A stretch of 64,000 nt of DNA from NCBI RefSeq assembly GCF_004010195.1, contig NC_057723.1, positions 22,006,474 through 22,070,473 of the forward strand, in the 5' to 3' direction. Of this stretch, positions 2,287-58,253 are shown one piece after another. A program made the position numbers and the translations under genes. Source of the DNA: Chiloscyllium plagiosum. Taxonomy: Eukaryota. The first letter of the stretch is position 1. Each line of letters begins with the position of its first letter. Below the pieces are notes generated by a model. That model did not search any database and was not told where the DNA came from. It saw only the letters and a list, made by a program, of their open reading frames with translations.

Positions 2287-2292
2287 TTTATT
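2287..2292 (-). terminator. AATAAA polyadenylation signal, LEAP2 paralogue 1
   Basis: tttatt on the plus strand, ~220 nt after the stop; same context (ttttattcaa) as 12789-12794 in paralogue 2. Confidence 0.6.
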
Positions 2293-2508: not shown

Positions 2509-3936
2509 TCAATCTTCATTGGCTGCCAAGGCACAGCGCTTCTTTCTGTAAAAACAAGATAATACTTGGATTAGCATAATAGTAAAGCAATGTGACATTT
2601 TCTTAATTATGTAAAGGACTTTAAGAGAACATGTGGTTGTTATAATATCTATCATAATTATAAATGGAAAGACATCCCAATGAATTGTTTTTGCATTTAC
2701 TTTTTTATGATTTATTCACATTTATATTGTATCAACTTTGATGGTGATGTAAACCATACTTGTTCTGAATTTGGTGTCTATAAACAGTAAAATTCATAAT
2801 TTTGGAGAAGGCTTTAATTTCCTGTTTGAATAGATTACAATGTTTGCAATATGCTGACCCCAAAGATGGGTTTTCTTTGGAAAAAAAACAAAAGCACACA
2901 CAAGTTTAAAAATTTTAAATAATGTTGTGGAGCATATTGTACAGGATATTAATTAGTAATTTTTTTTGGTTAACTTCATTAGCCCTTTCTAGTTAGACCA
3001 CAACTGAAAAACTGGCCATGGTAATCTTCACATTATTTTGTCAAGGTTTTTCTTATTTACCTGCAGTATTTTGAGCTGCATTCCTCATTGCTCCTGCAAG
3101 AGGATCCAAGGGGTCTGTAAGTGATCCATCTCCAGAGAGGAGTCATTCTCCTGGCTCTCTGAAGCACAGTTTCTACTGGCCCAATAGCAGCACAGTCAGC
3201 CTGTGAGAAGAGGCACAATCAAATTATTCATAATATCACTGCAATCATCCACTAAGTAGTTTAATAGATCTTAATAATGAGTTAATAAATATATTTTTAC
3301 TCTGAAGCTGGATATAAGGCTTATGATAGCCTTTATCTATTTGTGCATGAAACTACGCAATCAGATCTGTGTGGCCCAGACAAGAAAGGTATAAAGTGTC
3401 ATTAACTCAAGTGCTTTGAATACAGAATGAGATTTGTGGTCTACTATCTCCATAGTAGCAATTTGAACCTACTCTATTTTATAAAATAAAACCTACATCT
3501 GATGACACTTAAAACTGGCATTGCTTAAATATGCTGTGTATTGCTGTCCAGAAGAAACAGGAAGAGAAGTTTTACTCAGACTTCAACTGTTAGTCCCTTC
3601 ACCAGCTGCCACAAGTTACAACAAGAGGCAGCTCTAGAATGAGCAACCCTCCACTTGTTCCATCCTTCCTATCAGAAGGACTGGCATTAGGTTTGGTGCC
3701 TCTCCCGATGTTAGTGGCAAAAGGGGTCTTACCATAATAAAGCTCACGTGTTTTGCCACTGTTGCACAGCTTTGTAACCAACTAATAAAGCATTGTAATG
3801 GAAAATAATGTATTACATTTCATAAATTCATTACATTATGGCATGCAAGAAATGATTTGAGTGTAAGTACCTGACTGACGAAAAGAGTTGAAGCCACGCA
3901 AATAATAAGAACGATGTTCAAAATCTGAGCATTCAT
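2509..3936 (-). CDS. LEAP2: Liver-expressed antimicrobial peptide 2, paralogue 1; CDS complement(join(2509..2545,3061..3200,3871..3936)), 80 aa
   Basis: Hand-spliced with GT-AG introns (phases 0 and 2): MNAQILNIVLIICVASTLFVSQ|ADCAAIGPVETVLQRARR-MTPLWRWITYRPLGSSCRSNEECSSKYCR|KKRCALAANED*. It has a signal peptide, an RARR furin site and a 40-aa mature peptide with Cys17/23/28/33 as in human LEAP2 ([40 protein letters not shown]). It lies next to UQCRQ and GDF9 as in human. Confidence 0.97.
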
Positions 3937-4005
3937 TTCTGCAGAGGATTCTGTAATAGCTGCGCACTTAGAAATATTCATAGCTAAAACGTGTGATGCC
4001 TTGCA

Positions 4006-4250
4006 TTTTATAGAGCAGCCACTTGGCATTGGCCCAAATTCTTGACGTTATTACAGGTGATTTTGCTGGCTCATGAAGCAAAGATCAACTCCTTCAGATT
4101 CATAATCTACTAGAGGCAGAAACAGCAAATAAGATAACAAGGACTAAAGTATGGTTGGGGGAAGGGAAAGAAATGCTCAGGTTCCTTGTGGATTTACAAC
4201 TGTTTAATAAAATATAAAGGTTAAATGTTGTTAGACTGCACTACAGGTAT
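4006..4250 (-). promoter_or_regulatory. LEAP2 paralogue 1 promoter: TATAAAA (4006-4012) plus a block conserved with paralogue 2
   Basis: TATA box ~70 nt above the ATG; acaggtgattttgctggctcatgaagcaaagatcaa (4053-4088) is shared almost exactly with 14831-14866. Confidence 0.75.
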
Positions 4251-5469
4251 ACTCTGAAAATGTGCAATCTCACATTGCCATCAATGCACATGCAAACCTT
4301 CCCAATCACCAGCCCATACTTTGAAAATATGGGCTAATGTAATAAATTTTTAAAAATGATTAAACTTGCTCTTTCAAACAGACCTTCTACTGTTGGACTC
4401 TTACCAAATTTAATTAACCAATAATGTGGCAGCAGATCTAATGAGTTTTGTGCCAATAGCTTTTAAAGATTTAGTTCAAGGGTGATGTTAGAGAAAAAAA
4501 ATGTTTCTCACAGTGAGTAGTTAGGCTTTGGAAGGCATGGCCTTGAAATGTGGTGAAAGCAGGTTCAATCGAGTTGTTTGAGAGGGCTTGAGATGAATAA
4601 TTGGATAGAAATGATGTGCAGGAATATGAGGAAATTGAAGGAGATTAGCACTTGGTAATAGAACTGATACAGGCATATTGAGCCAAATATATCCCTTCTG
4701 TGCCATAACAACTCTGTGATCCATATTGTTAACATTAAATTTTCTTCATATTCGTATAACAATGGTATGAGTTATACTAAAAGATTTATCAGTATAATAT
4801 TAGAATAAAATCGGCAAAATAATAATTCTGATCAACCTTAAATAGAAGTTGAGCTGAATTTAAATCTTCGACTTCTCCAATACTCCATTCTCACTTTTTG
4901 CTTTTTACATTATGACAATTTTCATTAAGTTCAAACCGTCAAAGAGAGAAGTGGTATGTACACGACTATTTTCTTGACGTCAAGTCATCCCAACTCACAT
5001 TTGGGAGAAGTCATTTTGGAGCGTTAGTTACTGTGGCAATATACAAAAAGAATGCTGGCATTTCTGTGGCTCACTGATCTAATATTGATGTGAAATCCTC
5101 ATTCCTAAAAGTATGTTCATTTACCGGATGAAATTCAATGGACGGAAGTGTGAAGTGCTTCATTTTGTAGGTAGAACATGGAGAGACAATGTAAAATGAA
5201 GGGTTTAACTCTTAAATAGGATGCAGGAGCTAAGAGACCTTGGTGTGAGCATGCAAAGATCTTTGATGGTGGCAGAGCAGCTTGAGAGAGTAGTTTATAA
5301 AGCATATTCCTAAGCTTTATTAACAGGAATTAACAGTATTATTATAGTATTAACAGCAGAAGCAGTTCCAGGAATGAGCAACTTCAATTATGTGTGTACA
5401 TTGCAGAAGTTGGAAGTGTGGTAGTGAAGAAGAAAAGATTGAGAGCAAACTTGGTAGGGGTATAGCAAA

Positions 5470-6920
5470 TAGAGATGGATAGCACTGAAACAGATCCTTT
5501 GGTCCAACTCATCCATGCAGATATCTTAAATCATCCCAGCTGCCAGCATTTGGCCCATATCCTTCTAAACCTTTCCTATTCATATACCAATCCAGATACC
5601 TTTTAAATGTTATTATTGTACCAGCCTCCACCACATCCTGTGCTCATTCCATACATGCATCACCCCCTGCATGAAAACATTGCCCCTCCAGTCCTTTTAA
5701 ATCTTTCCACTCTGAGCTTAAACCTATGCCCTCTAGTTTTGGACTTTCCGATCATAGAGAATAGACCTTAATTGTTCACCCTATCTATGACCCTCCTGAT
5801 TATATAAACTTCCATCAGGGCTACCCTTCAGCCTCCAATGCTCCAGGGAAAATAGCCCCAGCCTACTCAACCTCTGCCTAAAGCTCAAACCCACCAACAC
5901 TGGCAACATCCTTGTAAATCTTTTCTGCACCCTTTCAAATTTCACAACATCCTCCCTATAGCAGGAAGATCAAAATTGAATGCTGTATTCCAAAAGTGGC
6001 CTCATCTGTCTTGTACAGTTTAATATGACCTCCCAACTCTGATACTGAATGCACTGAACAATAAAGGCAAGTATACCATACGCATTCTTCACCATACTGT
6101 CCAACTGCAACTCCACTTTCAAGGAACAATGAACTTGCACATTCAAGGTCTCTTTGTTTAGCAACACTTCCCAGAACCTTACTGTTAAGTATGTCCTTCC
6201 CTGATTTGTCCTACCAAAATATGGCACCTCACATTTATCTAGATTAAACTCCATCAGCCACTCCTTAGCCCATTGGCCCATCTGATCAAGGTCCCATTGT
6301 ACTCTGAGGGTACCTCCTTTGCTGTCCACTACACCTCCAGTTTTGGTGTCATTTTCAAACTTACTAACCATACCTCCTATGTTCACATCCATATCATTTA
6401 CATAAATGACAATAAGCAGTGGACCCAGCACTGATCCTTGTGGCACATTGCTGGTCACAGGCTTCCAGTCCAAAAAACAACCCCCCACTGTCACGATCTG
6501 TCTCCTATGTGCAAACCAATTTTGTATCCAAATGAGTAGTTCTCTCTGTATTCCATGTGATCTAACCTTGTTTACCAGACTACCGTGCAGAACTTTGTTG
6601 AACGTCTTCTGAAGTCCATAGAAACAACGTTCACTGCTCTGCTTTCATCAATCCTCTTCATCACTTCTTCAGAAAACTCAATCAAGTTAGTGGGACATAA
6701 TTTCCACACACAAAGCTATGTTGACTATACCTAATCAGTCCTTGCCTTTCAAAATACATATGAATCCTATCCCTCAGAATCTTCTCCAACAACTTGACCC
6801 AACTGACATCAGGCTCACCAGTCTATATTTCCCTGGCTTTTCCTGACCACCTTTCTTAAATCAAGGCACCACATTAGCCAACCTCCAGTCTTCTGGCATC
6901 TTACCATGGCTATTGATGAT
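5470..6920 (-). mobile_element. CR1/HER1-type LINE, 5'-truncated (RT plus 3' end)
   Basis: ORF 5970..6494 has [11 protein letters not shown]...SKFENDTK...MEFNLDKCEV...RPLLEY RT motifs; older plus-strand CR1 debris at ~5130-5460. Confidence 0.9.
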
Positions 6921-7134
6921 ATGGTTCCAAATGGATGGGGCAATACTGTTCCTAATAGAATGTTAAGAACGAAGACATTGATTTCATGTAACTGACCAAA
7001 GAAGTAATGGAGACATAGAGAAAAGATTTCGCACACAATTCCAGAATATGCTGTCAATCAAGGTATTCTAGGTAGGTTGGATTATTATCTAATCAGAAGA
7101 ATGCAAGGTGATGGGGAGAAGCTGGAGGAAGGGC

Positions 7135-7780
7135 CATTAAGTATGCCTTCCTTTTATTTGTCAGAACATTGAGTACAGGAGTTGGGAGGTCATGTTGCAG
7201 CTGTACAGGACATTGGTTAGGCCACATTTGGAATATTGTGTGCAGTTCTGGTCTCCCTCCTATTGGAAGGATGTTATGAAATTTGAAAGGGTTCAGAAAA
7301 GATTTACAAGGATGTTGCCATGGTTGGAGGGTTTGAGCTACAAGGAGAAGCTGAATAGGCTGGGGCTGTTTTCCCCGCAGAATTGGAGGCTGAGGGCTGG
7401 CCTTATAGAGGTATATAAAATCATGAGGGGGATGGATAGAGTAAATAGACAAGGTGTTTTCCCTAGGGTGGGGGAGTCCAGAACTAGAGGGCATAGGTTT
7501 AGGATGAGAGGGTAAAGATTTAAAAGGGACTGAAGGGGCAACTTTTTCATGCAGATGGTGGCACGTGTATGGAATGAGCTGCTAGAGGAAGCTGTGGAGA
7601 TTGGTACAATGACAACATTTAAAAGACATCTGGATGGTTATATGAATAGAAAAGGTTTAGAGGGATATGGACCAAATGTTGGCAAGTGGGTCTAGATTAA
7701 TTTAGGATATCTGGTTGGCATGGATGTGTTGGACCAAAAGGTCTATTTGAGTGCTATACATCTCTATGACTCAATGACTC
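7135..7780 (+). mobile_element. CR1/HER1 LINE 3' fragment
   Basis: [19 protein letters not shown]...RTRGH peptide; (ctatgact)n tail. Confidence 0.9.
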
Positions 7781-8881
7781 TAAGTGAATTACTCACTTCG
7801 GAGATCCAGCACAGACAATCAGAATGGTCATCTCTGCTCATGTACCAACTCTTTGATTCAGATTTTCTGTGTACAGCACTTAGCAGCTTCAAATCACCAA
7901 AGTACACGATAGGTTAACTGATAGAAACCCCAGGTTGTTTGATAACATTGATATATTTTAAAAGATTGACAAGCCCCCTCCACCCCTCCCCCCTTAGGAT
8001 TATATAGGACTAAAAATAAAATTGACAAAATTAAAATGAGGGGATTTGATCGAAACATGTAAAATCTCTGAATCTATTTTAAAAACAGATATATTTCTAG
8101 ACGCTAAATACCTCAGGAGGCTGGTGCCAGAGTGAAAGTCTGGTGTTGAAATAAGCAATCAGCCATGATCATATTAAGTGGTAGAGCAGACTTGATGGAC
8201 TGAATGGCCTACTCCTGCTCCTATTTTCTATGTTTCTTTATTACTCCTGACTGTTTTAATTGATTGAAACATTTATAATTTTCATTCTTCAACCCTGATA
8301 AAGTTGTAAATCACGTTTCCTACATTATGAACACAGCTCAGTTTATAGTTGCACAAGTTCTTTCTAAATGCAATTTCTCGTTCAGTTCCTGCTCTGTGAA
8401 AATAACCTTACAATGCAGTTTTCTTCACATGCGATAGTGCCGAAAATGATAAGGTCTGTAATCATAACTTGATCATGCCGGCTCCTTGAGTTAATGACAA
8501 TGGGCATGCAGTGAGATCACGTAGTCAACATACTGTCTTTCAATTTTACTTTAATACATAAGTTCTATCCATAAAATGTTGCAGTTAAGTTTCTGCTGCA
8601 AACAAAACCAAGTAGAGACAAAGCCTAAGATTAACCGTGAATCTAAGCCCAAATCTACCCATGAACTTGAATGCAACCAATAAGTAAATTCCAGTTTCAA
8701 ATTATGCTCCTAGGCTGAATCTTCTGCTGAGCATGGAATAAATGTTCTTCCAGTATAAATGTCAGGGGCTGATTGTGCCTCCATTTGGCTGGTTCACCCC
8801 ACAGCTTTCTATCAGCTCTGGGGCATTGGTAGGCTGCCAATGAGAATCCTCTGTCTCTGAGAGAATCTGAGTAATCAAGTG

Positions 8882-9195
8882 ATGCAACACAATGGCTCAG
8901 TGGTTAACACTGATGCCTCAGAGCACCAGGAACATGGGTTCAGTTCCAGCCTCTGGTGACTATGTGGGTTTCTGCCCGGTGAGGTGGTTTCCTCCCACAG
9001 TCTGAAGATGTGCAGATTAAGTGGGTTGACTACTGTAGTGATTACCCTGTAGTGTTCAGGCTAGGTGGGTTAGGCATGTGGGGTTACGGGCAGAGGGTGG
9101 GGGAGCTGGGTATGGATGGGATGTTCTTCAGAGGGTTGGTACAGACCCAATGGGCCAAATGGCCTCCTCCCGTACTTAGAGATTCTATGATTCTA
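8882..9195 (+). mobile_element. HE1-like tRNA-derived V-SINE (diverged)
   Basis: A-box tggctcagtggtt, B-box ggttcagttcc, V-domain remnant ggtttcctcccacagtc, CR1-like tail gattctatgattcta. Confidence 0.75.
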
Positions 9196-10072
9196 CTTGA
9201 TAGCAGGTGTCTTGTGCAGGCAGCCCAGTGGGGAGTGGACTGTGCAGCAGTGGAATTCAGACTGTGAGATGAAAATAGGTGTTGGATAAGGCTGACGATA
9301 ACAAGAACTGATAAGAGACTTTACAATGGGCTGTGGAGCTAGCACTGAATCATTCACGTCTGCTAAGAGCTCATTGTAACTGCTGTAACTCTCCCAAATA
9401 AGGACGGAACATTCGGGATTGGTCACGTGCACAGATAATTTCAAATAAGGTGTACATTTGGCATAGAGGCCTGTGTATAAAGCGTCCCAGGAAAATCCTT
9501 GATTTTTGGCAGGACTTTGAAGAATAACTCTGTAGGAGGTCCCCTATGTCAGGAGGCATGGTGAAGATATCAAGATGGGTTCCCATCTGCTTGCTGCCAA
9601 CTCTCCTGGGTATTAATGTCTGGTGTTATTTACAGAACTCAGGGTAGTCAAAGACAATGAATGAAATTTAAAGCAAGTGTTATTCATCTAAGTACTTAAT
9701 AAATTAATTGAGTTTTATAGAGTTCTAAGTATCTTTGTCTATGTATATATTGTTATCTCTCAGAGAAGCGCAACATGGGTCTTGCCTGTGGGCCAGGCTG
9801 GAATATACGGGCATGGGGTCTAAAGGGTTGAGGCAGAGATTGACAAGATCTTTGGGATGCAGAGTCAAAGGGAAAGGGTTCACACCCTGAGACAGAGTGG
9901 GAGAATGTCTCTGATAGACACCAATGGTTGCAATTAAGGCAGACACCTTCCAAGCCAAAACTTCACCACATTTAACGTGGCAGACTGAATACCTGCTCCA
10001 ACTCTAGTAAAATACCACTGCCAGCATAGAAGGCCCTTTGTTGGTCATTAATTTGAGTATTAGGCCGCACAT

Positions 10073-10385
10073 GGGGTGGCACAGTGGCTCAGTGGTTAGC
10101 ACTGCTGCCTCACAGCACCAGGGTCCCAGGTTCAATTCCAGCCTCGGGCGACTGTCTGTGTGGAGTTTGCACATTCTCCCCATGTCTCTGTGGGTTTTCT
10201 CCGGGTGCTCTGGTTTCCTCCCACATTCCAAAGATGTGCAGGGCAGGTGAATTGGCCATGGTAAATGACCCATGGTGTTAGGTGCATTAGTCAGAGGGAA
10301 ATGGGTCTGGGTGGATTACTCTTCGGTGGGTTGGTGTGGACTTGTTGGGCTGAAGGGCCTCTTTCTACATTGTAGGTAATCATTA
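10073..10385 (+). mobile_element. HE1 V-SINE
   Basis: tRNA head, V-domain (gtggagtttgcacattctcccc...ggtttcctcccac), HER1-like tail. Confidence 0.9.
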
Positions 10386-11171
10386 GTTGGCCTGTAGGTT
10401 GAATGGTGTACCCAGTGACTCCACTGGCACTGGTAAAGTTGCAGCTGTATGGAAGCGAAGGATAATTAGCCATAGAAGGGTATTGCTTTTATGGCACCTA
10501 GCTGCTATCCTGCTCTTGAAGGCTGTACATTTGCACGCTCAAAGCTGGGTGGAAGGATGTGTTGCGTAGAGATGTGGCAGTGTTGTTTGGACTGAGTGAG
10601 TGGATGAATACATGCCAGATGCAATATAATGTGGATAAATGTGAGATTATCCAGTTTGGTAGCAAAAATAGGAAGGCAGATTATTATTGCTTCCGTTTCT
10701 TTTGAGTGATGTCCTCCACAATATTTATATTGTGTTCTTTGTTATATCGAGCAATGAGCCTGAAAGGGTCAACCCTGAAGCTTTTTACGGCCCATAGATA
10801 CAAGTGACTCTTTCTGGGAGAAAGCTAGTCACTTCTAAAGTTTATTGCTGTCCGTTAGTCTTACCTCTGCTGTTAACAACCATGTATCTTAGTTTAGCCT
10901 GGTAACACTTAGTCTCTTATCAATTGTATCATAGTTAACCAGTTTTAAGATAATATAATCTGTCATCTTCCTATTATTTAATAAATTTCTCCTTGTTACT
11001 CAAGTGTATGCCACTTCTGCTGACAACTTTGTAGTTAATCCTTCACAATTTGATATTAGTAAGTCCATTGATTAGAATGACAAGAAGGATTGGGGTTGGA
11101 TCATCATCCCCACATGAGAGCTTAGTGGAGCCAGGTGCCAGCTGCAGACATCTCTTCCCACAAGGTGCCAT

Positions 11172-11503
11172 GGGTGGCCCAGTGACTCAGTGGTTAGCAC
11201 TGCTGCCTCACAGCACCAGGGAGCCGGGTTCAATTCCAGCCTCAGTTTGCACATTCTCCCAGTATCTGTATGAGTTTCCTCTGGGTGCTCCGGTTTCCTC
11301 CCACAACCCAAAGACGTGCAGGTTGGGTGAATTGGCCATGCTAAAATGCCCATGGTGTTTTAGAATGTGTGGGCTAGGTGCATTAGTCAGGGTAAATATA
11401 GGATAATAAGGTAGGGGAATGGGTCTGAGTGGGTTACTCTTCAGTGGGTCAGTGTGGACTTGTTGGGCTGAAGGGCCTGTTTCCATACTGTAGGGATTCT
11501 ATG
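11172..11503 (+). mobile_element. HE1 V-SINE
   Basis: Same head, V-domain and tail as 10073-10385. Confidence 0.9.
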
Positions 11504-11967
11504 ATGCTATATCCTCTGTCATTGAGCTTACTGCTGGCTCTGCTGCAAATATCTCTGTTTCTTTTGCAGTCCATTCTTCTCATTTGGCCTGGAACGTGTC
11601 TCAGCATGATGCAAAGCTGTAACTGTTCTCTCAATTAATATGCTGTAGCTGAAGATTGACAACCTCAGAACTTCTACACGTGTTATTAGCTTTCTTGATG
11701 CTAAATTTCACTTTTCTCAGCGGGTGTAATCTCCCATCAGGAGCTCTAATGCTTAAAATAATCCAATCTCAGATGAGATCATCTTCAATTGTTCAATCTC
11801 TCAGAATATAGCTAAAACATTTCAGTACAATCATATATTAATCCCTTGAGCTTCACTGTTGAACAAATGTAACTTATATCATGTGAACCAATCTAGGGTC
11901 TTCAAAGCTTTCAAAATTTCTGAAGTCTCACTGTTCTTCCCTTTAGTGAGAATCAGGACACAATTCA

Positions 11968-12268
11968 GGGCAGCACGGTGGCACAGTGGTTAGCACTGCT
12001 GCCTCACAGCGCCAGAGACCGGGGTTCAATTCCTGCCTCAGGCGACTGACTATGTGGAGTTTGCACATTCTCCCTGTGTCTGTGTGGATTTCCTCTGGGT
12101 GGTCTAGTTTCCTCCCACAGTCCAAAAATGTGCAGGTTAGGTGAATTGGCCATGCTAAATTCCCCGTAGTGTTAGGAGTAGGGGAATGGGTCTGGGTGAG
12201 TGGCGGGTCGGTGTGGACTTGTTGGGCCGAAGGGCCTGTTTCCATACTGTAAGTAATCTAATCTAATC
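11968..12268 (+). mobile_element. HE1 V-SINE (young-looking)
   Basis: gggcagcacggtggcacagtggttagcactgctgcc head, B-box ggttcaattcc, (taatc)n tail, CpGs retained. Confidence 0.92.
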
Positions 12269-12788
12269 AAACTAGCAATAATCTTACCCGAGCACTCTGA
12301 ACAGGGGGTTCGTAATTCTTATATGGCTCCGGTTTTCTAATTCTGTACGTATTTTATAGTTTTTTTCACTGAAAGTGGAAGAAATTTCAATTAAGTCTCT
12401 CATACCTCCTTTCATTTTCACCGCAACAAGGAATGGAAAATGCCCATCAATTTTGACACACCCAGTAATTCAAAGTTACAGACTTCTTTTTAACTTCTTT
12501 CTTTCAGTAGTTGAATCTTAGAGCAATGAAATTCTACACATTTCTAGCTGCTCCAAACTGATGCCGTGCTCCATGTTGTGTGAGGATTAGCTACCACAGA
12601 TTACACACAAAGGCAGCAGAGGTTGAGGTCACATAACAATAGGAAAAAATGCCAGTAGATTAAAGATACAATTGTATTCCACGAATCATAACCCACTGGC
12701 ATAAGGAAACAGTAGACATATCTATTTCAGTTTCCATACTCCAAAATATCATGGAATTGATTAACTTTCAGACAATACATTTTTCCAT

Positions 12789-12794
12789 TTTATT
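12789..12794 (-). terminator. AATAAA polyadenylation signal, LEAP2 paralogue 2
   Basis: tttatt ~190 nt after the stop, homologous to 2287-2292. Confidence 0.6.
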
Positions 12795-12983
12795 CAAGCT
12801 TAATTTGTTGTTTGTACAAAAAATACATTAAAATTCACTTACAATCAATTGTATACAATACATTTACAGGAATACATTGGTTGGCAAATAATTTACACAG
12901 CGAGATTGGGCATAAATAATTTACATAAATACAAAATAGTTTATATTATATTTGTGATTCTTTACAAAAATCTTGTTTGAATT

Positions 12984-14706
12984 TTAGACTTCATAGACAG
13001 CCAAGCTGCAGCGCTTCTTTCTGTAAGATCAAGATAATATTTGGATTAGCATAAAGGATAGAATATAACATGTTTACATGATAATCCAATGTGGTGTTTT
13101 CTTATTTATTTAAAGCACTTTAACGATTCATTTAATTATCATAATCCCCATCACCATTAATTATAAACAGGAAGTGCTTATACAATTATTGGGTATCTGA
13201 ACTTTCATTTCTGTCTTTTGTTTTTGGTTTATTACACAGATACAGTTTATCTGAATTTTGACTGCAGTAAAAACTGCTGTTTCTTGCATGTAGTGCCTAT
13301 AAAGGGAATGATTCATGATTTTGGAGTCGACTCTAATTTCAATTCCTCTTATTTAAACAGATTGTTTGCAATATGTTGATTCCAGAAATGGATTTTCTTT
13401 GATAAATAAATAGCACACACAAGTTTAAAAATGTTAGGAATGTTCAGAAACACAATTAAGATTAATGATGATTTATATTTGATTAACTTCATTAGCCCTT
13501 TCTAGTTAGACCACAACTGAAAAACTGGCCATGGTAATCTTACATTATTTTGTCAAGGTTTTTCTTATTTACCTGCAGTATTTTGAGCTGCACTCCTCAT
13601 TGCTCCTGCAAGAGGATCCAAGGGGCCTGTAAGTGATCCATCTCCAGAGAGGAGTCATTCTCCTGGCTCTCTGAAGCACAGTTTCTACTGGCCCAATAGC
13701 AGCACAGTCAGCCTATGTGAAGAGGCACAATCATATTATTCATAATGTCACTGCAACCATCCACTAGCTTAGACAGCGCAACATCCAGTGTGCCTCATAG
13801 CAGACGTAAATCAGTTGCTGTTAACTGTTTCCAATAACTTTTTCTCTTCTGTCTTTTTGAGCACCAGCTTACATATCTTCCCGCATGCTAGTTCAAACTT
13901 CAATATTGGTAACAGCCCAGCAATATATAAGCATGTTTTGGATTGTTCGAACAATAGCTGCCACAAACACAATCTGCTGAGTAGTCATTTCATACTCAGT
14001 AGCTCAGTAGGCATTAATAATATTTTAGTAGATATTTTTCCCATAAAGTAGCTGTAAAATATTACTTGTTATCAGTCAAAAGCTACTGTATCTCTTATCT
14101 TCTCATGTATGAGTATAGACAATCAGATGTATGTGCTACAGATAAGAAAAGAATAAGTTAGGATTACTATAAATATTATAGATTTCTGAGTGAGCTTCGT
14201 TGGTCCATTATCTCCATAATAATGCAAAACAAAGCTACTGACACTCTATTTTACAAATTAAAACCTACTTCTGATTGCACTAAAATTTTGCATTGCTAAA
14301 ATGCACCATGTATTGCTTTCCTGAGTAAACATAAGAACACAACATGCAGCCAGGCTTCAGCTGTTAATAATTCCTTTACTAGCTGTGACAAGTTGCAAGA
14401 CGAGACATTCCCAGAATAACAAATCCTCTGACATTTCTGTCAGAAGGGCCTGCATCAGGTATGGTGGCTTCCGCATTGGGTACTTGTCATGTAAAATCTC
14501 TGGAAACAGAAGATATTTTGCCACTGTTGCACAGATTCTTAACTTTCTTTCAATATAATGCTGCAATAGAAAGTGTCTGTAAATATTTCACTACATAAAT
14601 TCATGATCTCCTCCAATATTGTAATTTCATACTTACATACCTGAGTGTTAAAAAGAGTTGAAGCTATGCAAATAATTGCAAAGTATTTCATAAATTGAGC
14701 ATTCAT
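12984..14706 (-). CDS. LEAP2: Liver-expressed antimicrobial peptide 2, paralogue 2; CDS complement(join(12984..13020,13573..13712,14641..14706)), 80 aa
   Basis: MNAQFMKYFAIICIASTLFNTQ|ADCAAIGPVETVLQRARR-MTPLWRWITYRPLGSSCRSNEECSSKYCR|KKRCSLAVYEV*. Exon sizes (66/140/37) are identical to paralogue 1 and the splice sites are canonical. Confidence 0.97.
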
Positions 14707-14786: not shown

Positions 14787-15030
14787 TTTTATAGGCAGCT
14801 GCTTGGCATAGACACATTCGCAATTTAGATACAGGTGATTTTACTGGCTCATGAAGCAAAGATCAAATCCATAATGCTTGTAATCTATCAGAGGCAGAAG
14901 AGCAAAAAAATTAAAAGGACTCAAGTCTGGTCAGGGCAAGAGAAAACAATATTCATGCATTTCTTGATTCTACATTGCTTAAATAACATAGAAAGGTTTA
15001 GTGTTGTTAGACTGCTCTACAAATATGTCA
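14787..15030 (-). promoter_or_regulatory. LEAP2 paralogue 2 promoter: TATAAAA (14787-14793), C/EBP-like attcgcaat (14816-14824), conserved block 14831-14870
   Basis: Position relative to the ATG and direct alignment with the paralogue 1 promoter. Confidence 0.75.
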
Positions 15031-16749: not shown

Positions 16750-17290
16750 ACATAGAACATAGAAAAATACAGCGCAGTACAGGCCCTTTGGCCCTCGATG
16801 TTGCGCCGATCCAAGCCCACCTAACCTACACTAGCCCACTATCCTCCATATGCCTATCCAATGCCCGTTTAAATGCCCATAAAGAGGGAGAGTCCACCAC
16901 TGCTACTGGCAGGGCATTCCATGAACTCACGACTCGCTGAGTAAAGAATCTACCCCTAACATCTGTCCTATACCTACCACCCCTTAATTTAAAGCTATGT
17001 CCTCTCGTAATAGCTGACTCCATACGTGGAAAAAGGTTCTCATGGTCAACCCTATCTAAACCCTAATCATCTTGTACACCTCTATCAAGTCACTCCTAAA
17101 CCTTCTTTTCTCCAATGAAAACAGCCCCAAGTGCCTCAGCCTTTCCTCATACGATCTTCCTACCATACCAGGCAACATCCTGGTAAACCTCCTCTGCACC
17201 CGCTCCAGTGCATCCACATCCTTCCTATAGTATGGCAACCAAAACTGCACACAATACTCCAGATGCGGCCGCACCAGAGTCTTATACGTG
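16750..17290 (-). mobile_element. CR1 LINE 3' fragment
   Basis: [16 protein letters not shown] and TRGHSFKL peptides; (catagaa)n tail. Confidence 0.9.
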
Positions 17291-31742: not shown

Positions 31743-34384
31743 TTATTTATCATTCACATAGTCAGCCGGATTCTTCCTCATTGACATTTCATGTTCATTT
31801 ATGGCCCAGGTATAAATAAGATATGAGATCACAAATGCTGGAAAATAAAATATGCACCAGTTTAACTTCTAAATCAGATTACTGACAAAGAATACAACAT
31901 ACCCACACTTTCAGCGGGAATTAATTCTTATTCAGATAAAAGCAAAGTATTGAGGTGCTGGAGACATGAAATAAAAACAAAGTGCTGGAGAAACCCAGCA
32001 GGTCTGACAGTATCTGTGGAGAGTCAGAAAGAGTACATGGTTTGAGTTTAATATGGAATTGAAGAGGGATGGAAAACTGATGGGTTTTATGCTATAAAAC
32101 GAAGGGAGCATGAGCAAGAGGAATAGAGGGCAACAGTGTTCCAACGTAAAAGGTGGAGGCAGTATCAATGAGAGTAGACAAGACATAGATAAATAGTAGG
32201 TATTAATTGTAGAAAGTGGATTAGTTCTACTGGGAACTGCACCTCATTTTCTGCTTAGACACTTTATAGCTTTCAGGACTCCGTGAGTTTGACAACTTCA
32301 CACCATGAACCTTGTTCTTTATATTTTCGACTATCATAAGCACTCCGTTTGGCTGTTGCTCTGGTGTACCTAAACCATCTGCTCCACTTCTCCCTTCTTC
32401 CAGCTCCCCTCCTTTTTTGCAGTAAAACACCCATCCCTTCTCCACCTCATTCAGTTCTGAAGAGTCATACTGGAATCAAAATATTAGGAGGTGCTGCCTG
32501 ACCTCATGAGTTTCTCCAGCACTTTGTGTTTTCATTACAGTTCTTCTTCTGAACCAGCATACCAAATTAAACTCTGCTCTATTTGGGATAGCACTAAAAA
32601 CAAAATACCCACTTCACCATTTTAATCCACTGCAACATTCTGTTTCTTAGATGACCATTATTGATGCCTGTGCTCTACCCTTGCCTAAACCAAACTATGA
32701 GCAATATAAATGGAGTTTGTGACCTCAATATACAGATTCGCATGGCATGTGTATTAGCATATTAAGCTTCACAGAACATAGAACATTACAGTACAGGCCC
32801 TTCAGCCCTCGACGTTACACCGACCTGTAGAACCAATCTAACCTACACTATTCCATTCTCATCCATATGCCTATCCAATGCCCATTTAATGCCCTTAAAG
32901 TTAGGGAGTCTAGTACTACTGTTGCAGGCAGTGTGTTCCATGCCCCTACTACTCTGAGTAAGAAACTACCTGACATCTGTCCTACATCTATCACCCCTCA
33001 ATTTAAAGCTATGCCCCCTCGTGCTAGCCATCGCCATCCGAAGAAAAAGACTCTCACTGTCCACCCTATCTAACCCTCTGTTTATCTTATATGGCTCAAT
33101 TAAGTCATTACTCAACTTTCTCTGTAACGAAAACAGCCTCAAGTCCCTCAGCCTTTCCTCGTAAGCCCTTCCCTCCATACCAAGCAACATCCTAATAAAT
33201 CTCCTCCAAACCCTTTCCAAAGCTTCCACATCCTTCCTATATTGCAGAGACCAGAACTGTGTGCATTACTCCAAATGTGGTCGCACCAGTGTTTTGTTCA
33301 GCTGCAGCATGATCTCATGGTTCCAAAACTCAATCCCTCTACCAATAAAAGCCAATACACCGTATACCTTCTTAACAACCTTATCAACCTGGGTGGCAAC
33401 TTTCAAGGATCTATGTACCTGGACACCAAGACCTCTCTGCTCATCTACGCTATCAAGAATCCTACCAATAGCCCAGTTCTCTGCATTCCAGTTACTCCTT
33501 CCGAAGTGAATCACCTCACACTTTTCTGCATTAAACTCTATTTGCCACCTCTCAGCCCAGCTCTGCAGCTTTTGTATGTGTCTCTGTAACCTACAACATC
33601 TTTCGGCACTATCCACAACCCTACCAACCTACCACAAATTTACTAGCCCATCCTTCTATGCCCTCATCCAGGTCATTTATAAAAATGACAAAAAACAATG
33701 GACCCAAAACAGATCCTTGCAGTACCCCACTAGTAACTAAACTCTAGGATAAATATTTCCCATCAACCACCACCCTCTGTCTTCTTTTAGCTAGCCAATT
33801 TCTGATCGACATCACCAAATCGCCCTCAATCCCATGCCTCTGTATTTTGTGCAATAGCCTACCATGGAGAACTTTATCAAACGCTTTACTGAAATCCATA
33901 TACACCACATCAACCATTTTACCCTCATCCACCTGTGTGGTCACCTTCTCAAAGAACGCAGTAAGGTTCATTGTGCTTTTGTTGATAAAGTGGACAAGAT
34001 GAATAGTAAATTGAATGTTTTTATAATAACATAAATGCTTAACTTCCTTACTTATTAAATTATCGTATTGTTACCTATGAGAATTGACCAATAATTCAAT
34101 GCATTTTTTCAAAATTAACACAGGATCCAAGTGGGCCCATACACAACCTAGACTTCATTTGTAAGGTAAAACCTAAAACTTTACGTGTCATTTCTATAGA
34201 GAAAATGTCTGAAAACATTACGATACATACGTGGAACAATCCGTAACACTTGACCCTTGAATCGCCTCCATGTATTGGGAATGCCTTTGGAGAAATAATT
34301 TGCAAATGCCCTTTGTTCAAATGGAGAGATGGTATAGGTGATAATGTGCCGCACTTTGATCAAGTTTCCAAAGTGGCGACCCAT
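31743..34384 (-). CDS. UQCRQ: Cytochrome b-c1 complex subunit 8 (complex III subunit VII); CDS complement(join(31743..31837,34231..34384)), 82 aa
   Basis: [51 protein letters not shown]|[31 protein letters not shown]. Phase-1 GT-AG intron; same length as human UQCRQ; AATAAA candidates at 31643-31648 and 31663-31668. Confidence 0.97.
31930..32540. mobile_element. Penelope-like fragments in inverted arrangement (UQCRQ intron 2)
   Basis: gtgctggagaaacccagcaggtc / gacctcatgagtttctccagcac inverted ends; decayed ctgaaga...aaa hammerhead-like motif at ~32457-32485. Confidence 0.55.
32770..33970 (-). mobile_element. CR1 LINE (RT plus 3' end) in UQCRQ intron 2
   Basis: [34 protein letters not shown] peptides; agaacatagaaca tail. 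Confidence 0.92.
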
Positions 34385-38394: not shown

Positions 38395-38628
38395 TTTTTT
38401 TTCTTCAGGAAGATTGGAAAACACCCGGGTGGGTATAGCACTTTATTTTTTTTTTTTTAAAACACCCGGGTGGGTATAGCACTTTATTTTTTTTTCCTTT
38501 TCCCTTTAACCCCCACACTACCACCTAACTGCGGTAGTGCTTATTTTTTTTCCCCCAGCACCCATGGTGTGTGTGTGCAGGTGTGAGACACAGTGGAAGA
38601 CACAAAGTGCACGAATCTTTATTCAATT
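38395..38628 (-). mobile_element. Young unclassified poly(A) retroposed insertion with ~14-16-bp TSD
   Basis: ttaccaggttttaatt at 38379-38394 and 38629-38644; poly-T at the left end; internal ~36-bp direct repeat. Confidence 0.75.
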
Positions 38629-42821: not shown

Positions 42822-44413
42822 CTAGCGGCAGGTACAGGTCGTAGCGATCATATCTTCGTACTCTTTGTAAACTATGGAGCCATCGTTTTCCAGGGTTAAC
42901 ACGCTCAGTGGATTATATTTGGCGGGGACACAGGAAGGGCGAGGGACTGAGGAGTCCACCTTTTCGTAGAGGATGTTCTGGATCAGGGTGTGCACGGGGG
43001 AGCCGTAGCGGTGGCTGAGTGCCCGGGGACAGCTGCCCTTACAGAAGCGAGGGTTGTAGTTGTGCGGGGCGATGATCCAGCGGTCCCACCGGAGCTGGCT
43101 GAAAGACAGTCGGAAATCGTGCAGCTGGCACTCGTGATCCGGATACGGGAAGGGAGGAAAGGCAGCGGCAGAGTGTGCCTGGGCATCGCCTCCGGGACCT
43201 CTGCGAAGTCGGATGGACCTCACGGCCAGCTTCCTCCTGCGCCCCCCGGGGAACGGGCTCCTCTGGGCATCTGTCTGCAGCCAGCTCCGGCGAGACTCTT
43301 CGGCGGTGTCGTTGAGGAACAGGAGCAGGGAAGGAGCGGTCAGACCCTGCCTGAGCCCGCTGCAGCCTCCCCGTCTCCGGCCGCCCTCGGTGCACTGGTA
43401 GGTGAACACTGCGTGGAGCTGCCCCCTCTCGGGGCCGATGAACGGCTGCAGGAAGGAGGCGAGCTCCACTTCCAGCCACTGGCGCCTCTTGCGGCGTTCA
43501 AATCGAAGGCGGAAGGTGTGTGAACGCGGAGAGCTGGAGCACATCTGAGCGGGAGCCCCCTCCTCTTGGATAGTCAGGCTGCAGTTACACACCGTCGGAA
43601 AACACGCCGATTTATCGACGGGGTACAGGAATACTGATCGGAGCAACTGCTCCCGAGAGGTCACAGGATCCAAACCATAAAAGACATCTTGCTCAAGTAC
43701 ATCTGCAAAGAGGAAACATCGCCAGATGAAACTCAACAAGTGTCAATATTGGACAGGAACCAACCCATGTTTTAAAATGGAGATTAAAGCCCAAAATAGT
43801 TTTAAATGGAATTGAGACCTCTGTTATAAACATGATTATTATATAACAAAAGACACCCACCAATCGGAGGAGGAATGTTTATAAATTGTCACTTTCAATC
43901 TACAGGAATCGTTTAAGATATGTCTATTCAAGTGGTTTTAACACCAGAACGTCGAAAACAATGTAACTCGAAATGTATTTTCCCCACTCACGGAAAAGCA
44001 AGGCACAGATTTCCCTGCATATGTAAAAGAAATTTCCTTTGCAGAGTTACCAATATTCTAAACTCGAGGTTACCTTCTATATCACGAGACTCGACCCGGG
44101 GTGTTAGTAACCTCACGGTGTTATATCGCTGAGCTGCTGGTCTTTTGGGTATTCCATCCTGTGTAGCGCACATAGTGTATAATCTTTTCATGTACTTTAA
44201 GTACTTTGCATCGGGTTTTGTAGGAACCCGAAAATCCCAGCCGGGTTTTTCCATTAGAACTTCTAGGAGAGGAACTGGAATATAATCCTGGGGATTCGAG
44301 GTTACCTCTGGACCGGCAGAGCTAATGGATGTGGTAGGAGAGATACAACTGCTCAATAATGCTAGCCAAATAATACAGTGAAGATGCATTCCAACACTCC
44401 TCACAAGGTGCAT
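42822..44413 (-). CDS. GDF9: Growth/differentiation factor 9; CDS complement(join(42822..43702,44074..44413)), ~406 aa (alternative ATG at 44389)
   Basis: Signal peptide; YMKRLY...GIPK...YNTVRLLTP prodomain; single 371-bp phase-1 GT-AG intron; RLRR furin site (43200-43211). The TGF-beta domain CQLHDFRLSFSQLRWDRWIIAPH...YGSPVHT...PRPSCVP...YKEYEDMIATTCTCR has Ser in place of the dimerisation Cys. Synteny with UQCRQ and LEAP2 distinguishes it from BMP15. Confidence 0.97.
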
Positions 44414-44469
44414 CGTCTTTAAAACGAAGATTAACCCACTATACTCGAAAAAGTTACTCCGCTCAATAG

Positions 44470-44720
44470 AATTGGAAACAGATGGTCTCTCACCCTTATA
44501 AAGAGGCTGTATCGGACCTGTTTTGGGAGGGGGTGGGTGGAGTGCCAGGTCAATAATCTTATTAAGGCCATTAAGAAATAATTTAATAATCGGTGAAGCG
44601 TCAACCCCTCTACATGACTCGCAAGAATGTTGAGATTGGGATGAGTGTGGTTTGTCAAGGTGGAACAAGACTCGCTACATTGCCAGTTAATGCCTTAATC
44701 AGAAACAACATGTGAAGTAA
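44470..44720 (-). promoter_or_regulatory. GDF9 proximal promoter (TATAA at ~44495-44501)
   Basis: ctttataaggg on the minus strand ~85 nt above the ATG; nearby aggtca, tcaaggt, taatc and E-box-like motifs (function not shown). Confidence 0.55.
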
Positions 44721-57862: not shown

Positions 57863-58253
57863 CAGCAGATGTACAGGAGATTTCAGCTTACCTGGCTGTA
57901 ACATGACTTTTCTGAAATCCAGAGTTAGGGGGAATGATGACATGTCACCTTTTCAAGGTTTTAACCTCTCCTTCATGCTCTCTATGATTTTGTTTGTAGC
58001 ATCCTAACAATACCATCACTCAATTATGTCCAATGGGTAAATTCTTAATTTTGGGAAACAGCAGATGTACAGGAGATTCCAGCTTACCTGGCTGTAACAT
58101 GACTTTTCTGAAATCCAGAGTTAGGGGGAATGATGACATGTCACTTTTCAAGGTTTTAACCTCTCCTTCATGCTCTCTATGATTTTGTTTGTAGCATCCT
58201 AACAATACCATCACTCAATTATGTCCAATGGGTAAATTCTTAATTTTGGGAAA
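57863..58253 (+). repeat. Tandem duplication, 196 + 195 bp units
   Basis: 57863-58058 vs 58059-58253; one substitution and one 1-bp indel seen. Confidence 0.95.

What the first reader, a model, noticed from the sequence alone, without database searches (positions are those of the whole stretch)
2970..13766. Gene-conversion tract homogenising exon 2 of the two LEAP2 paralogues
Seen: 2970-3254 and 13483-13766 (~285 bp) differ at only about 8 positions (~97% identity). Exon 2 differs at 2 of 140 nt, both synonymous, and ~90 bp of intron 2 is identical apart from one indel. By contrast exon 1 differs at 16/66 nt (9 of 22 aa), exon 3 at 9/37 nt, and the remaining introns are clearly diverged with indels. 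Purifying selection would not conserve intron and silent sites this way. Inference: recent interlocus gene conversion keeps the propeptide, furin site and mature residues 1-29 identical, while the promoter, signal peptide and C-tail diverge. Established: the LEAP2 N-terminus carries GHSR1a antagonism in mammals. The result would be one ligand core under two regulatory front ends.
Basis: partly seen in the sequence, partly recalled or inferred. Interest (0 to 1): 0.8.

Follow-up and report, generated by a model that had tools for sequence, protein, structure and literature searches.

The report
Shark LEAP2 twins share converted exon
Two old neighbouring copies of a shark hormone and antimicrobial peptide gene have recently had their middle exon copied from one onto the other, a well-known kind of DNA exchange that I did not find reported for this gene.

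Summary
Confirmed. Two intact tandem LEAP2 genes (minus strand, downstream of GDF9 and UQCRQ) differ at 31% of 1533 aligned sites, except one 285-bp tract (2970-3254 / 13483-13766) with 7 substitutions and 1 indel; its 90 intron-2 bases have none. Whale shark has both copy types, so the duplication is old. All 8 informative residues of exons 1 and 3 group by paralogue; both informative residues of exon 2 group by lineage (Fisher p=0.022). The tree test for exon 2 is marginal (AU 0.039, KH 0.12). Best reading: interlocus gene conversion in the last few percent of the duplicates' history (0.85). The whale-shark copies differ at 4 of 47 exon-2 residues, including mature residue 4; the promoters share a 35/36-bp block; no expression or receptor data were found. 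The anatomy matches the known bovine oxytocin/vasopressin exon-2 conversion. I found no report of it for LEAP2. Shark DNA orthologues and reads could not be checked. A real, clean, but ordinary kind of event.

The parts
2970..3254 (-). Homogenised tract in LEAP2 copy A: last 54 nt of intron 1, exon 2, first 91 nt of intron 2
   Evidence: 7 substitutions + 1 indel vs copy B in 284 aligned sites
13483..13766 (-). Homogenised tract in LEAP2 copy B
   Evidence: family D7
3871..3936 (-). LEAP2-A exon 1 coding part (most of the signal peptide, 22 aa)
   Evidence: ATG to GT donor; 3 of 22 aa differ from Hemiscyllium P0001 and from Rhincodon P0002
3061..3200 (-). LEAP2-A exon 2 (end of signal/propeptide, R-x-R-R site, mature residues 1-29)
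   Evidence: Pfam PF07359 49 bits vs cut-off 27; PDB 2l1q residues 1-29
2509..2545 (-). LEAP2-A exon 3 coding part with stop codon
   Evidence: AG acceptor, open frame
14641..14706 (-). LEAP2-B exon 1 coding part
   Evidence: 1 of 22 aa differs from Rhincodon P0004
13573..13712 (-). LEAP2-B exon 2
   Evidence: PF07359 49 bits; 2 synonymous differences from A
12984..13020 (-). LEAP2-B exon 3 coding part with stop codon
13767..14096 (.). Non-alignable intron-1 stretch of B (330 bp; 80 bp at 3255-3334 in A) at which the tract ends abruptly
   Evidence: alignment; no other copy in the window
4052..4087 (-). Upstream block shared by both promoters (A copy); TATAAA at 4007-4012
   Evidence: 35 of 36 identical to 14830-14865, permutation p=0.015
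14830..14865 (-). Shared upstream block (B copy); TATAAA at 14788-14793
2287..2292 (-). AATAAA poly(A) signal candidate of A (B: 12789-12794)

Best explanation
An old tandem duplication of LEAP2, older than the split of whale shark from bamboo/epaulette sharks, left two intact genes 10.5 kb apart in the same orientation. Purifying selection kept exon 2 the most similar stretch (inferred). That let it serve as a template for non-allelic homologous repair, which copied about 230-285 bp, with flanking intron, from one gene onto the other (inferred). The tract stops at a large indel in intron 1 and at a T-rich, diverged stretch in intron 2 (shown). The latest event took place in roughly the last 4-8% of the duplicates' history (upper 95% bound about 19%). 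It most likely came after the whale-shark split, because both copies carry the lineage-specific Ala38 in the same codon. The more diverged intron-1 edge may be an older, longer event. Result: identical pro-region, processing site and mature residues 1-33, with separate signal peptides and C-tails. The direction of transfer cannot be read. Whether selection favours the homogenisation is not shown; neutral conversion seeded by a conserved exon is enough.
For: Tract vs background: LLR 69.7 vs at most 12.5 in 300 permutations. Intron 2 beyond the 6-nt donor: 0 of 84 differences where 33% is expected, p=2e-15. Like-for-like control, the first 90 nt after the exon-1 donor: 37 of 87 differ. Fourfold sites in exon 2: 0 of 20, p=3e-4. 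Rhincodon has an A-type and a B-type protein, both listed with the same longest-contig length. Quartet sites: exons 1+3 give 8 by paralogue, 0 by lineage; exon 2 gives 0 by paralogue, 2 by lineage; Fisher p=0.022. Ala38 is in both window copies and Hemiscyllium A; 11 of the other 12 chondrichthyan proteins have Val and 1 has Ile. Exon 2 is not frozen: 15 of 47 columns vary among 9 shark sequences, orthologues differ at 4 of 47, the paralogues at 0 of 47, p=0.015. Exons 1+3 reject the by-species tree (AU 2.7e-5); exon 2 prefers it by 8.2 lnL. No Rfam family at gathering score and no unusual fold (z -0.67 to +0.35) in the intron part.
Against: The exon-2 tree test is marginal: AU 0.039 but KH and SH 0.12. 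Only two informative residues, and residue 31 is labile (Met also in 2 of 3 rays). Synonymous differences in exon 2 vs exons 1+3 are not significant (p=0.075). GC3 of exon 2 is not raised (0.44 and 0.49 vs 0.20-0.73 elsewhere); Gwee et al. used that criterion to argue against conversion in oxytocin-family genes. The intron-1 part (5 of 54) is only modestly better than the unconverted exon-3 acceptor zone (10 of 54, though that zone has 24 gap columns). No orthologous shark DNA, no second-species B copy from Hemiscylliidae and no reads could be examined.
Confidence: 0.85

Rival explanations
1. Purifying selection at nucleotide level: exon 2 and the adjoining intron hold a functional element (splicing or intron-retention control, enhancer, RNA element) that kept both copies nearly unchanged without exchange.
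For: This was argued for the near-identical second exons of coelacanth and elephant-shark vasotocin/oxytocin genes (PMC2315648, PMC2656470, passages). Human LEAP2 has intron-retaining transcripts (PMC11722547, passage). GC3 is not raised. Acceptor zones are partly constrained anyway.
Against: It needs Val38Ala to arise twice in the same codon, and Met31 twice in whale shark. Exon 2 varies at 15 of 47 columns among sharks. 90 of 90 intron identity against a 33% background would be ultraconserved-grade. No Rfam match or structure signal. In the cited fishes identity did not run, or ran only 6-14 bp, into the introns.
Confidence: 0.07
2. Assembly or polishing artefact: one gene's exon-2 region was filled with sequence (or the other allele) of the other gene.
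For: The window holds two near-exact tandem duplications that look like join artefacts (38418-38495, 41 bp x1.9; 57863-58253, 195 bp x2 at 98%). The core's 3 differences in 231 could be allelic. No B-type protein from a second Hemiscylliidae assembly was visible, and the cluster look-up could not be made.
Against: Reads or k-mers do not cross-map at 31% divergence, so the copies would have to be near-identical already (inference). The tract is short, has unique flanks, no Ns and 8 scattered differences. 5 of 54 in intron 1 is too many for alleles yet fewer than background (p=4e-5). The independent whale-shark pair also shares a residue by species.
Confidence: 0.05
3. The duplication is recent and everything outside the tract diverged fast, so the tract shows the true age.
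For: Exon 1 of the A type is derived relative to other sharks.
Against: Introns, UTRs and promoter are all 28-34% diverged with many indels. A and B types are shared with whale shark (97-99% bootstrap for each clade; by-species tree rejected, AU 2.7e-5).
Confidence: 0.01

Closest known systems
[quoted passage not shown] 1984, known to me only through PMC2315648 and PMC2656470, passages)
   Same: Neighbouring three-exon peptide-precursor paralogues; second exon nearly identical (197 bp) with identity running 135 bp into an intron; exons 1 and 3 diverged.
   Different: There the converted exon encodes the carrier neurophysin and the hormones in exon 1 stay distinct (recalled). Here the converted exon encodes the receptor-binding part itself, so the two ligands become identical at the N-terminus. 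Here the tract enters both introns.
LEAP2 family (Pfam PF07359); teleost LEAP-2A/2B/2C paralogues (PMC11767564, passage)
   Same: Three exons, signal-pro-mature layout, R-x-R-R site, 40-residue mature peptide with four Cys, GDF9-UQCRQ neighbourhood (human synteny recalled).
   Different: This is a tandem pair seen only in carpet sharks among the 13 chondrichthyan proteins found. Its relation to the teleost paralogues was not tested. Teleost paralogues are not described as homogenised in the passages I read.
Interlocus gene conversion / concerted evolution of tandem duplicates (general; PMC3924837, search listing only)
   Same: Short tract with sharp edges; paralogues closer than orthologues inside it.
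   Different: Nothing mechanistically different was found.

Membership tests
LEAP2 (PF07359) | Profile match above the curated cut-off | tested here: met
   49 bits vs 27 for exon 2 of both copies; 96% identity to Hemiscyllium LEAP2-like P0001
LEAP2 (PF07359) | Three exons, two introns, intact frame and GT-AG sites | tested here: met
   both copies, 80 aa each
LEAP2 (PF07359) | Basic processing site before a 40-residue mature peptide with four Cys | tested here: met
   R-x-R-R at residues 37-40; Cys at mature 17, 23, 28, 33; aligns to 2l1q 1-29
LEAP2 (PF07359) | GHSR antagonism or antimicrobial activity | not testable with these tools
   Leu4-bearing teleost LEAP2s are reported active on GHSR (bioRxiv 2022.09.21.508860, passages); no shark assay found
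Interlocus gene conversion tract | Local identity far above the rest of the duplicates, with sharp edges | tested here: met
Interlocus gene conversion tract | Identity extends to non-coding and silent sites | tested here: met
   0 of 90 intron-2 sites and 0 of 20 fourfold sites; donor-zone control 37 of 87
Interlocus gene conversion tract | Tree conflict: tract groups by species, flanks by paralogue | tested here: inconclusive
   Protein level only: 8:0 vs 0:2 sites, p=0.022; AU 0.039 but KH and SH 0.12
Interlocus gene conversion tract | Non-coding tract sequence diverged between orthologues of other species | not testable with these tools
   No shark DNA collection was available
Interlocus gene conversion tract | Raised GC from biased conversion (used by some authors; not required for rare events) | tested here: not met
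   GC3 of exon 2 is 0.44/0.49; intron-2 tract GC 0.33 vs 0.27-0.28 for the rest of intron 2
Interlocus gene conversion tract | Both sequences real (read support) | not testable with these tools
   No reads

The most novel reading that the evidence does not exclude
Conversion of exon 2 has recurred independently in the whale-shark and bamboo-shark lines and is favoured by selection: it locks the ghrelin-receptor-binding core of two differently expressed LEAP2 genes together while signal peptide and C-tail (net charge +4 vs +5) specialise, for example one endocrine and one mucosal antimicrobial copy. That would be a natural experiment separating the two roles of LEAP2 in the oldest jawed lineage.
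Probability: 0.15. Interest if true: 0.55.

Novelty: new member of a known kind. Interest (0 to 1): 0.33.

Why it matters
It is a clean, small example of exon-limited concerted evolution in a hormone/antimicrobial gene. It points to a carpet-shark LEAP2 duplication that I did not find described in 8 searches of an open-access library. Practical points: mature-peptide trees will misdate this duplication, and exon-2 primers or short reads cannot tell the two genes apart. It would matter more only if the two copies prove to be expressed differently and the conversion proves recurrent.

Tried and rejected
Structured RNA in the tract: Rfam gave only two sub-threshold hits to a Salmonella sRNA model (24 and 21 bits vs 50), taken as chance; the four intron segments folded no better than shuffles. 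Third LEAP2 copy in the window: none by tblastn (that call's exon coordinates were off by one and were corrected) or blastn. Further conversion tracts: the best other segments were 2534-2579 (p=0.065), 2893-2912 (p=0.11), 3741-3769 (p=0.48) and the promoter block 4052-4087 (p=0.015, more likely a cis-element). GC signature: absent. More shark copies: searches over 29-93, 44-153 and 94-2000 aa gave 13 chondrichthyan cluster representatives. Members inside the clusters (4, 2 and 3 for P0001, P0002, P0004) stay unseen because that look-up could not be made. The 50%-cluster search (101 hits, no names) added no new hit with a score in the shark range and was not used. Carcharodon P0011 has a non-homologous N-terminus; it fell spuriously into the A clade and its first 22 columns were set to gaps. 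Literature: 'LEAP2'+'gene conversion' gave 1 paper, with no link between the terms.
Full report
What is there. The window holds two intact three-exon genes on the minus strand, 10.5 kb apart. Copy A has coding exons at 3871-3936, 3061-3200 and 2509-2545; copy B at 14641-14706, 13573-13712 and 12984-13020. Each encodes 80 aa with GT-AG introns, a TATAAA upstream and an AATAAA downstream. Exon 2 of each matches Pfam LEAP-2 (49 bits, cut-off 27) and residues 1-29 of PDB 2l1q. Upstream on the same strand lie a UQCRQ exon (34232-34384) and a GDF9-like gene (42822-44674); these are the neighbours of LEAP2 in mammals (recalled). The nearest named protein is from Hemiscyllium ocellatum (5 of 80 differences from A), so the source is probably a bamboo shark or close kin (inference). 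No third copy was found.

2970-3254 and 13483-13766 differ by 7 substitutions in 284 aligned sites and one indel, against 475 of 1533 outside. Exon 1 differs at 16 of 66 nt, exon 2 at 2 of 140 (both silent), exon 3 at 9 of 37. A scan of all segments picked this tract with LLR 69.7; 300 permutations reached at most 12.5. The tract is uneven: 0 of 90 in intron 2, 2 of 140 in exon 2, 5 of 54 in intron 1 (change-point p=0.028). It ends at one side on a large indel (80 bp in A against 330 bp in B).

Selection on the protein does not explain it. Intron 2 beyond the donor has 0 of 84 differences where 33% is expected (p=2e-15). The matching zone after the exon-1 donor differs at 37 of 87. Fourfold sites are 0 of 20 (p=3e-4). 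There is no Rfam family or stable fold. Against this: silent differences in exon 2 are not significantly fewer than in exons 1+3 (2 of 43 vs 4 of 20 codons, p=0.075). The intron-1 part is only moderately better than the unconverted exon-3 acceptor zone (5 of 54 vs 10 of 54). GC3 is not raised.

Other species. Three protein searches gave 13 named chondrichthyan representatives (7 of 7, 110 of 263 and 2 of 3 candidates passed). Whale shark has an A type (P0002) and a B type (P0004); epaulette shark shows an A type (P0001); each other species gave one representative. Members hidden inside the 90% clusters could not be listed, so a Hemiscyllium B copy, or second copies elsewhere, stay unchecked. 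In the quartet of window A, window B, whale-shark A and whale-shark B, 10 sites are informative: 8 group by paralogue (6 in exon 1, 2 in exon 3), 2 by lineage (both in exon 2), none crosswise (Fisher p=0.022). Residue 38 is Ala in both window copies (same codon) and in Hemiscyllium A, but Val in 11 and Ile in 1 of the other 12. Residue 31 is Met in both whale-shark copies and Val in the other 9 shark sequences; it is also Met in 2 of 3 rays, so it is a weak site. With 15 sequences (Carcharodon's non-homologous N-terminus set to gaps), exons 1+3 reject the by-species tree (delta lnL 38, AU 2.7e-5). Exon 2 prefers it (delta lnL 8.2; AU 0.039, KH and SH 0.12). Exon 2 does evolve: 15 of 47 columns vary among 9 shark sequences and orthologues differ at 4 of 47, yet the older paralogues differ at 0 of 47 (p=0.015).

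Mechanism. Shown: old duplication, local homogenisation including intron, sharp edges, one shared derived residue. Inferred: the conserved exon 2 kept enough identity to seed non-allelic repair; one or more conversion events copied 230-285 bp; a heterology stopped the tract. Jukes-Cantor distance is 0.44 for background introns, 0.036 for the non-coding part of the tract and 0.015 for the core (intron 2 plus degenerate codons), so the event falls in about the last 4-8% of the duplicates' history (upper bound about 19%). The donor cannot be identified. An artefact cannot be excluded without reads. The window has two near-exact tandem duplications that may be joins, but cross-mapping needs copies that are already near-identical.

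The functional gloss. The mature peptides are identical through residue 33 and differ at 34, 37, 38 and 40. Residues 1-14 carry GHSR interaction in mammals and the C-terminus is less critical (PMC11722547, passages; PMC11767564, passages), so the two products probably bind a receptor alike (inference). But the whale-shark pair differs at 4 of 47 exon-2 residues, including Phe4/Leu4, a binding position in human LEAP2 (bioRxiv 10.1101/2022.09.21.508860, passages). A single shared core is therefore not a rule of the order. The promoters are diverged like other flanks (87 of 305) and share a 35/36-bp block. Different regulation is untested.

Comparison with what is known. [quoted passage not shown] Those two papers read the exon-limited cases in coelacanth and elephant shark as selection, which is the main rival here. 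Eight searches of an open-access library showed no paper on a shark LEAP2 duplication or on LEAP2 conversion. For most hits I saw only listings and abstract openings; I read passages of PMC10975883 and bioRxiv 10.1101/2023.06.03.543543 without finding it. Subscription journals are largely missing, and bioRxiv supplements, which may hold shark LEAP2 alignments, were closed.

Verdict. Real, most likely gene conversion (0.85), a new instance of a well-known process. Interest 0.33.

Noticed in passing
window 34232-34384 (-) and 42822-44674 (-): UQCRQ first coding exon (Pfam UcrQ, 76.6 bits) and a two-exon GDF9-like gene. Both lie on the same strand as LEAP2; I recall GDF9 being head-to-head with UQCRQ in human, so the orientation may differ.
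   Followed up: partly
window 4052-4087 and 14830-14865: A 36-bp block about 40 bp upstream of each TATA box is 35/36 identical (p=0.015). It contains a CAAAG-type nuclear-receptor half-site and an E-box (motif names recalled, not tested). A shared cis-element or a small conversion.
   Followed up: partly
window 57863-58253 and 38418-38495: Two-copy tandem duplications (195 bp at 98%; 41 bp at 100%) that look like assembly joins of overlapping contig ends.
   Followed up: partly
P0002 vs P0004 (Rhincodon typus): The whale-shark A copy has Phe at mature residue 4, as in human, while its B copy and the other sharks seen have Leu; Callorhinchus also has Phe.
   Followed up: partly
window 3060 and 13572 (exon 2/intron 2 junction): If intron 2 were retained, both genes would stop right after mature residue 29 and give the same three-Cys peptide. 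Intron-retaining LEAP2 transcripts are reported in human (PMC11722547).
   Followed up: no
window 13767-14096: 330-bp intron-1 stretch of B with no counterpart in A (80 bp there) and no other copy in the window.
   Followed up: partly
window 5469-7770, 8881-12260, 16751-17283 and many others: Fragments of LINE-like elements (reverse-transcriptase-like ORFs) and a SINE-like family, 70-85% identical to each other, fill the space between and around the genes. Class names recalled, not tested.
   Followed up: no
P0011 (Carcharodon), P0008 (Heptranchias): Public LEAP2-like models with a non-homologous or extended N-terminus, probably annotation errors.
   Followed up: no
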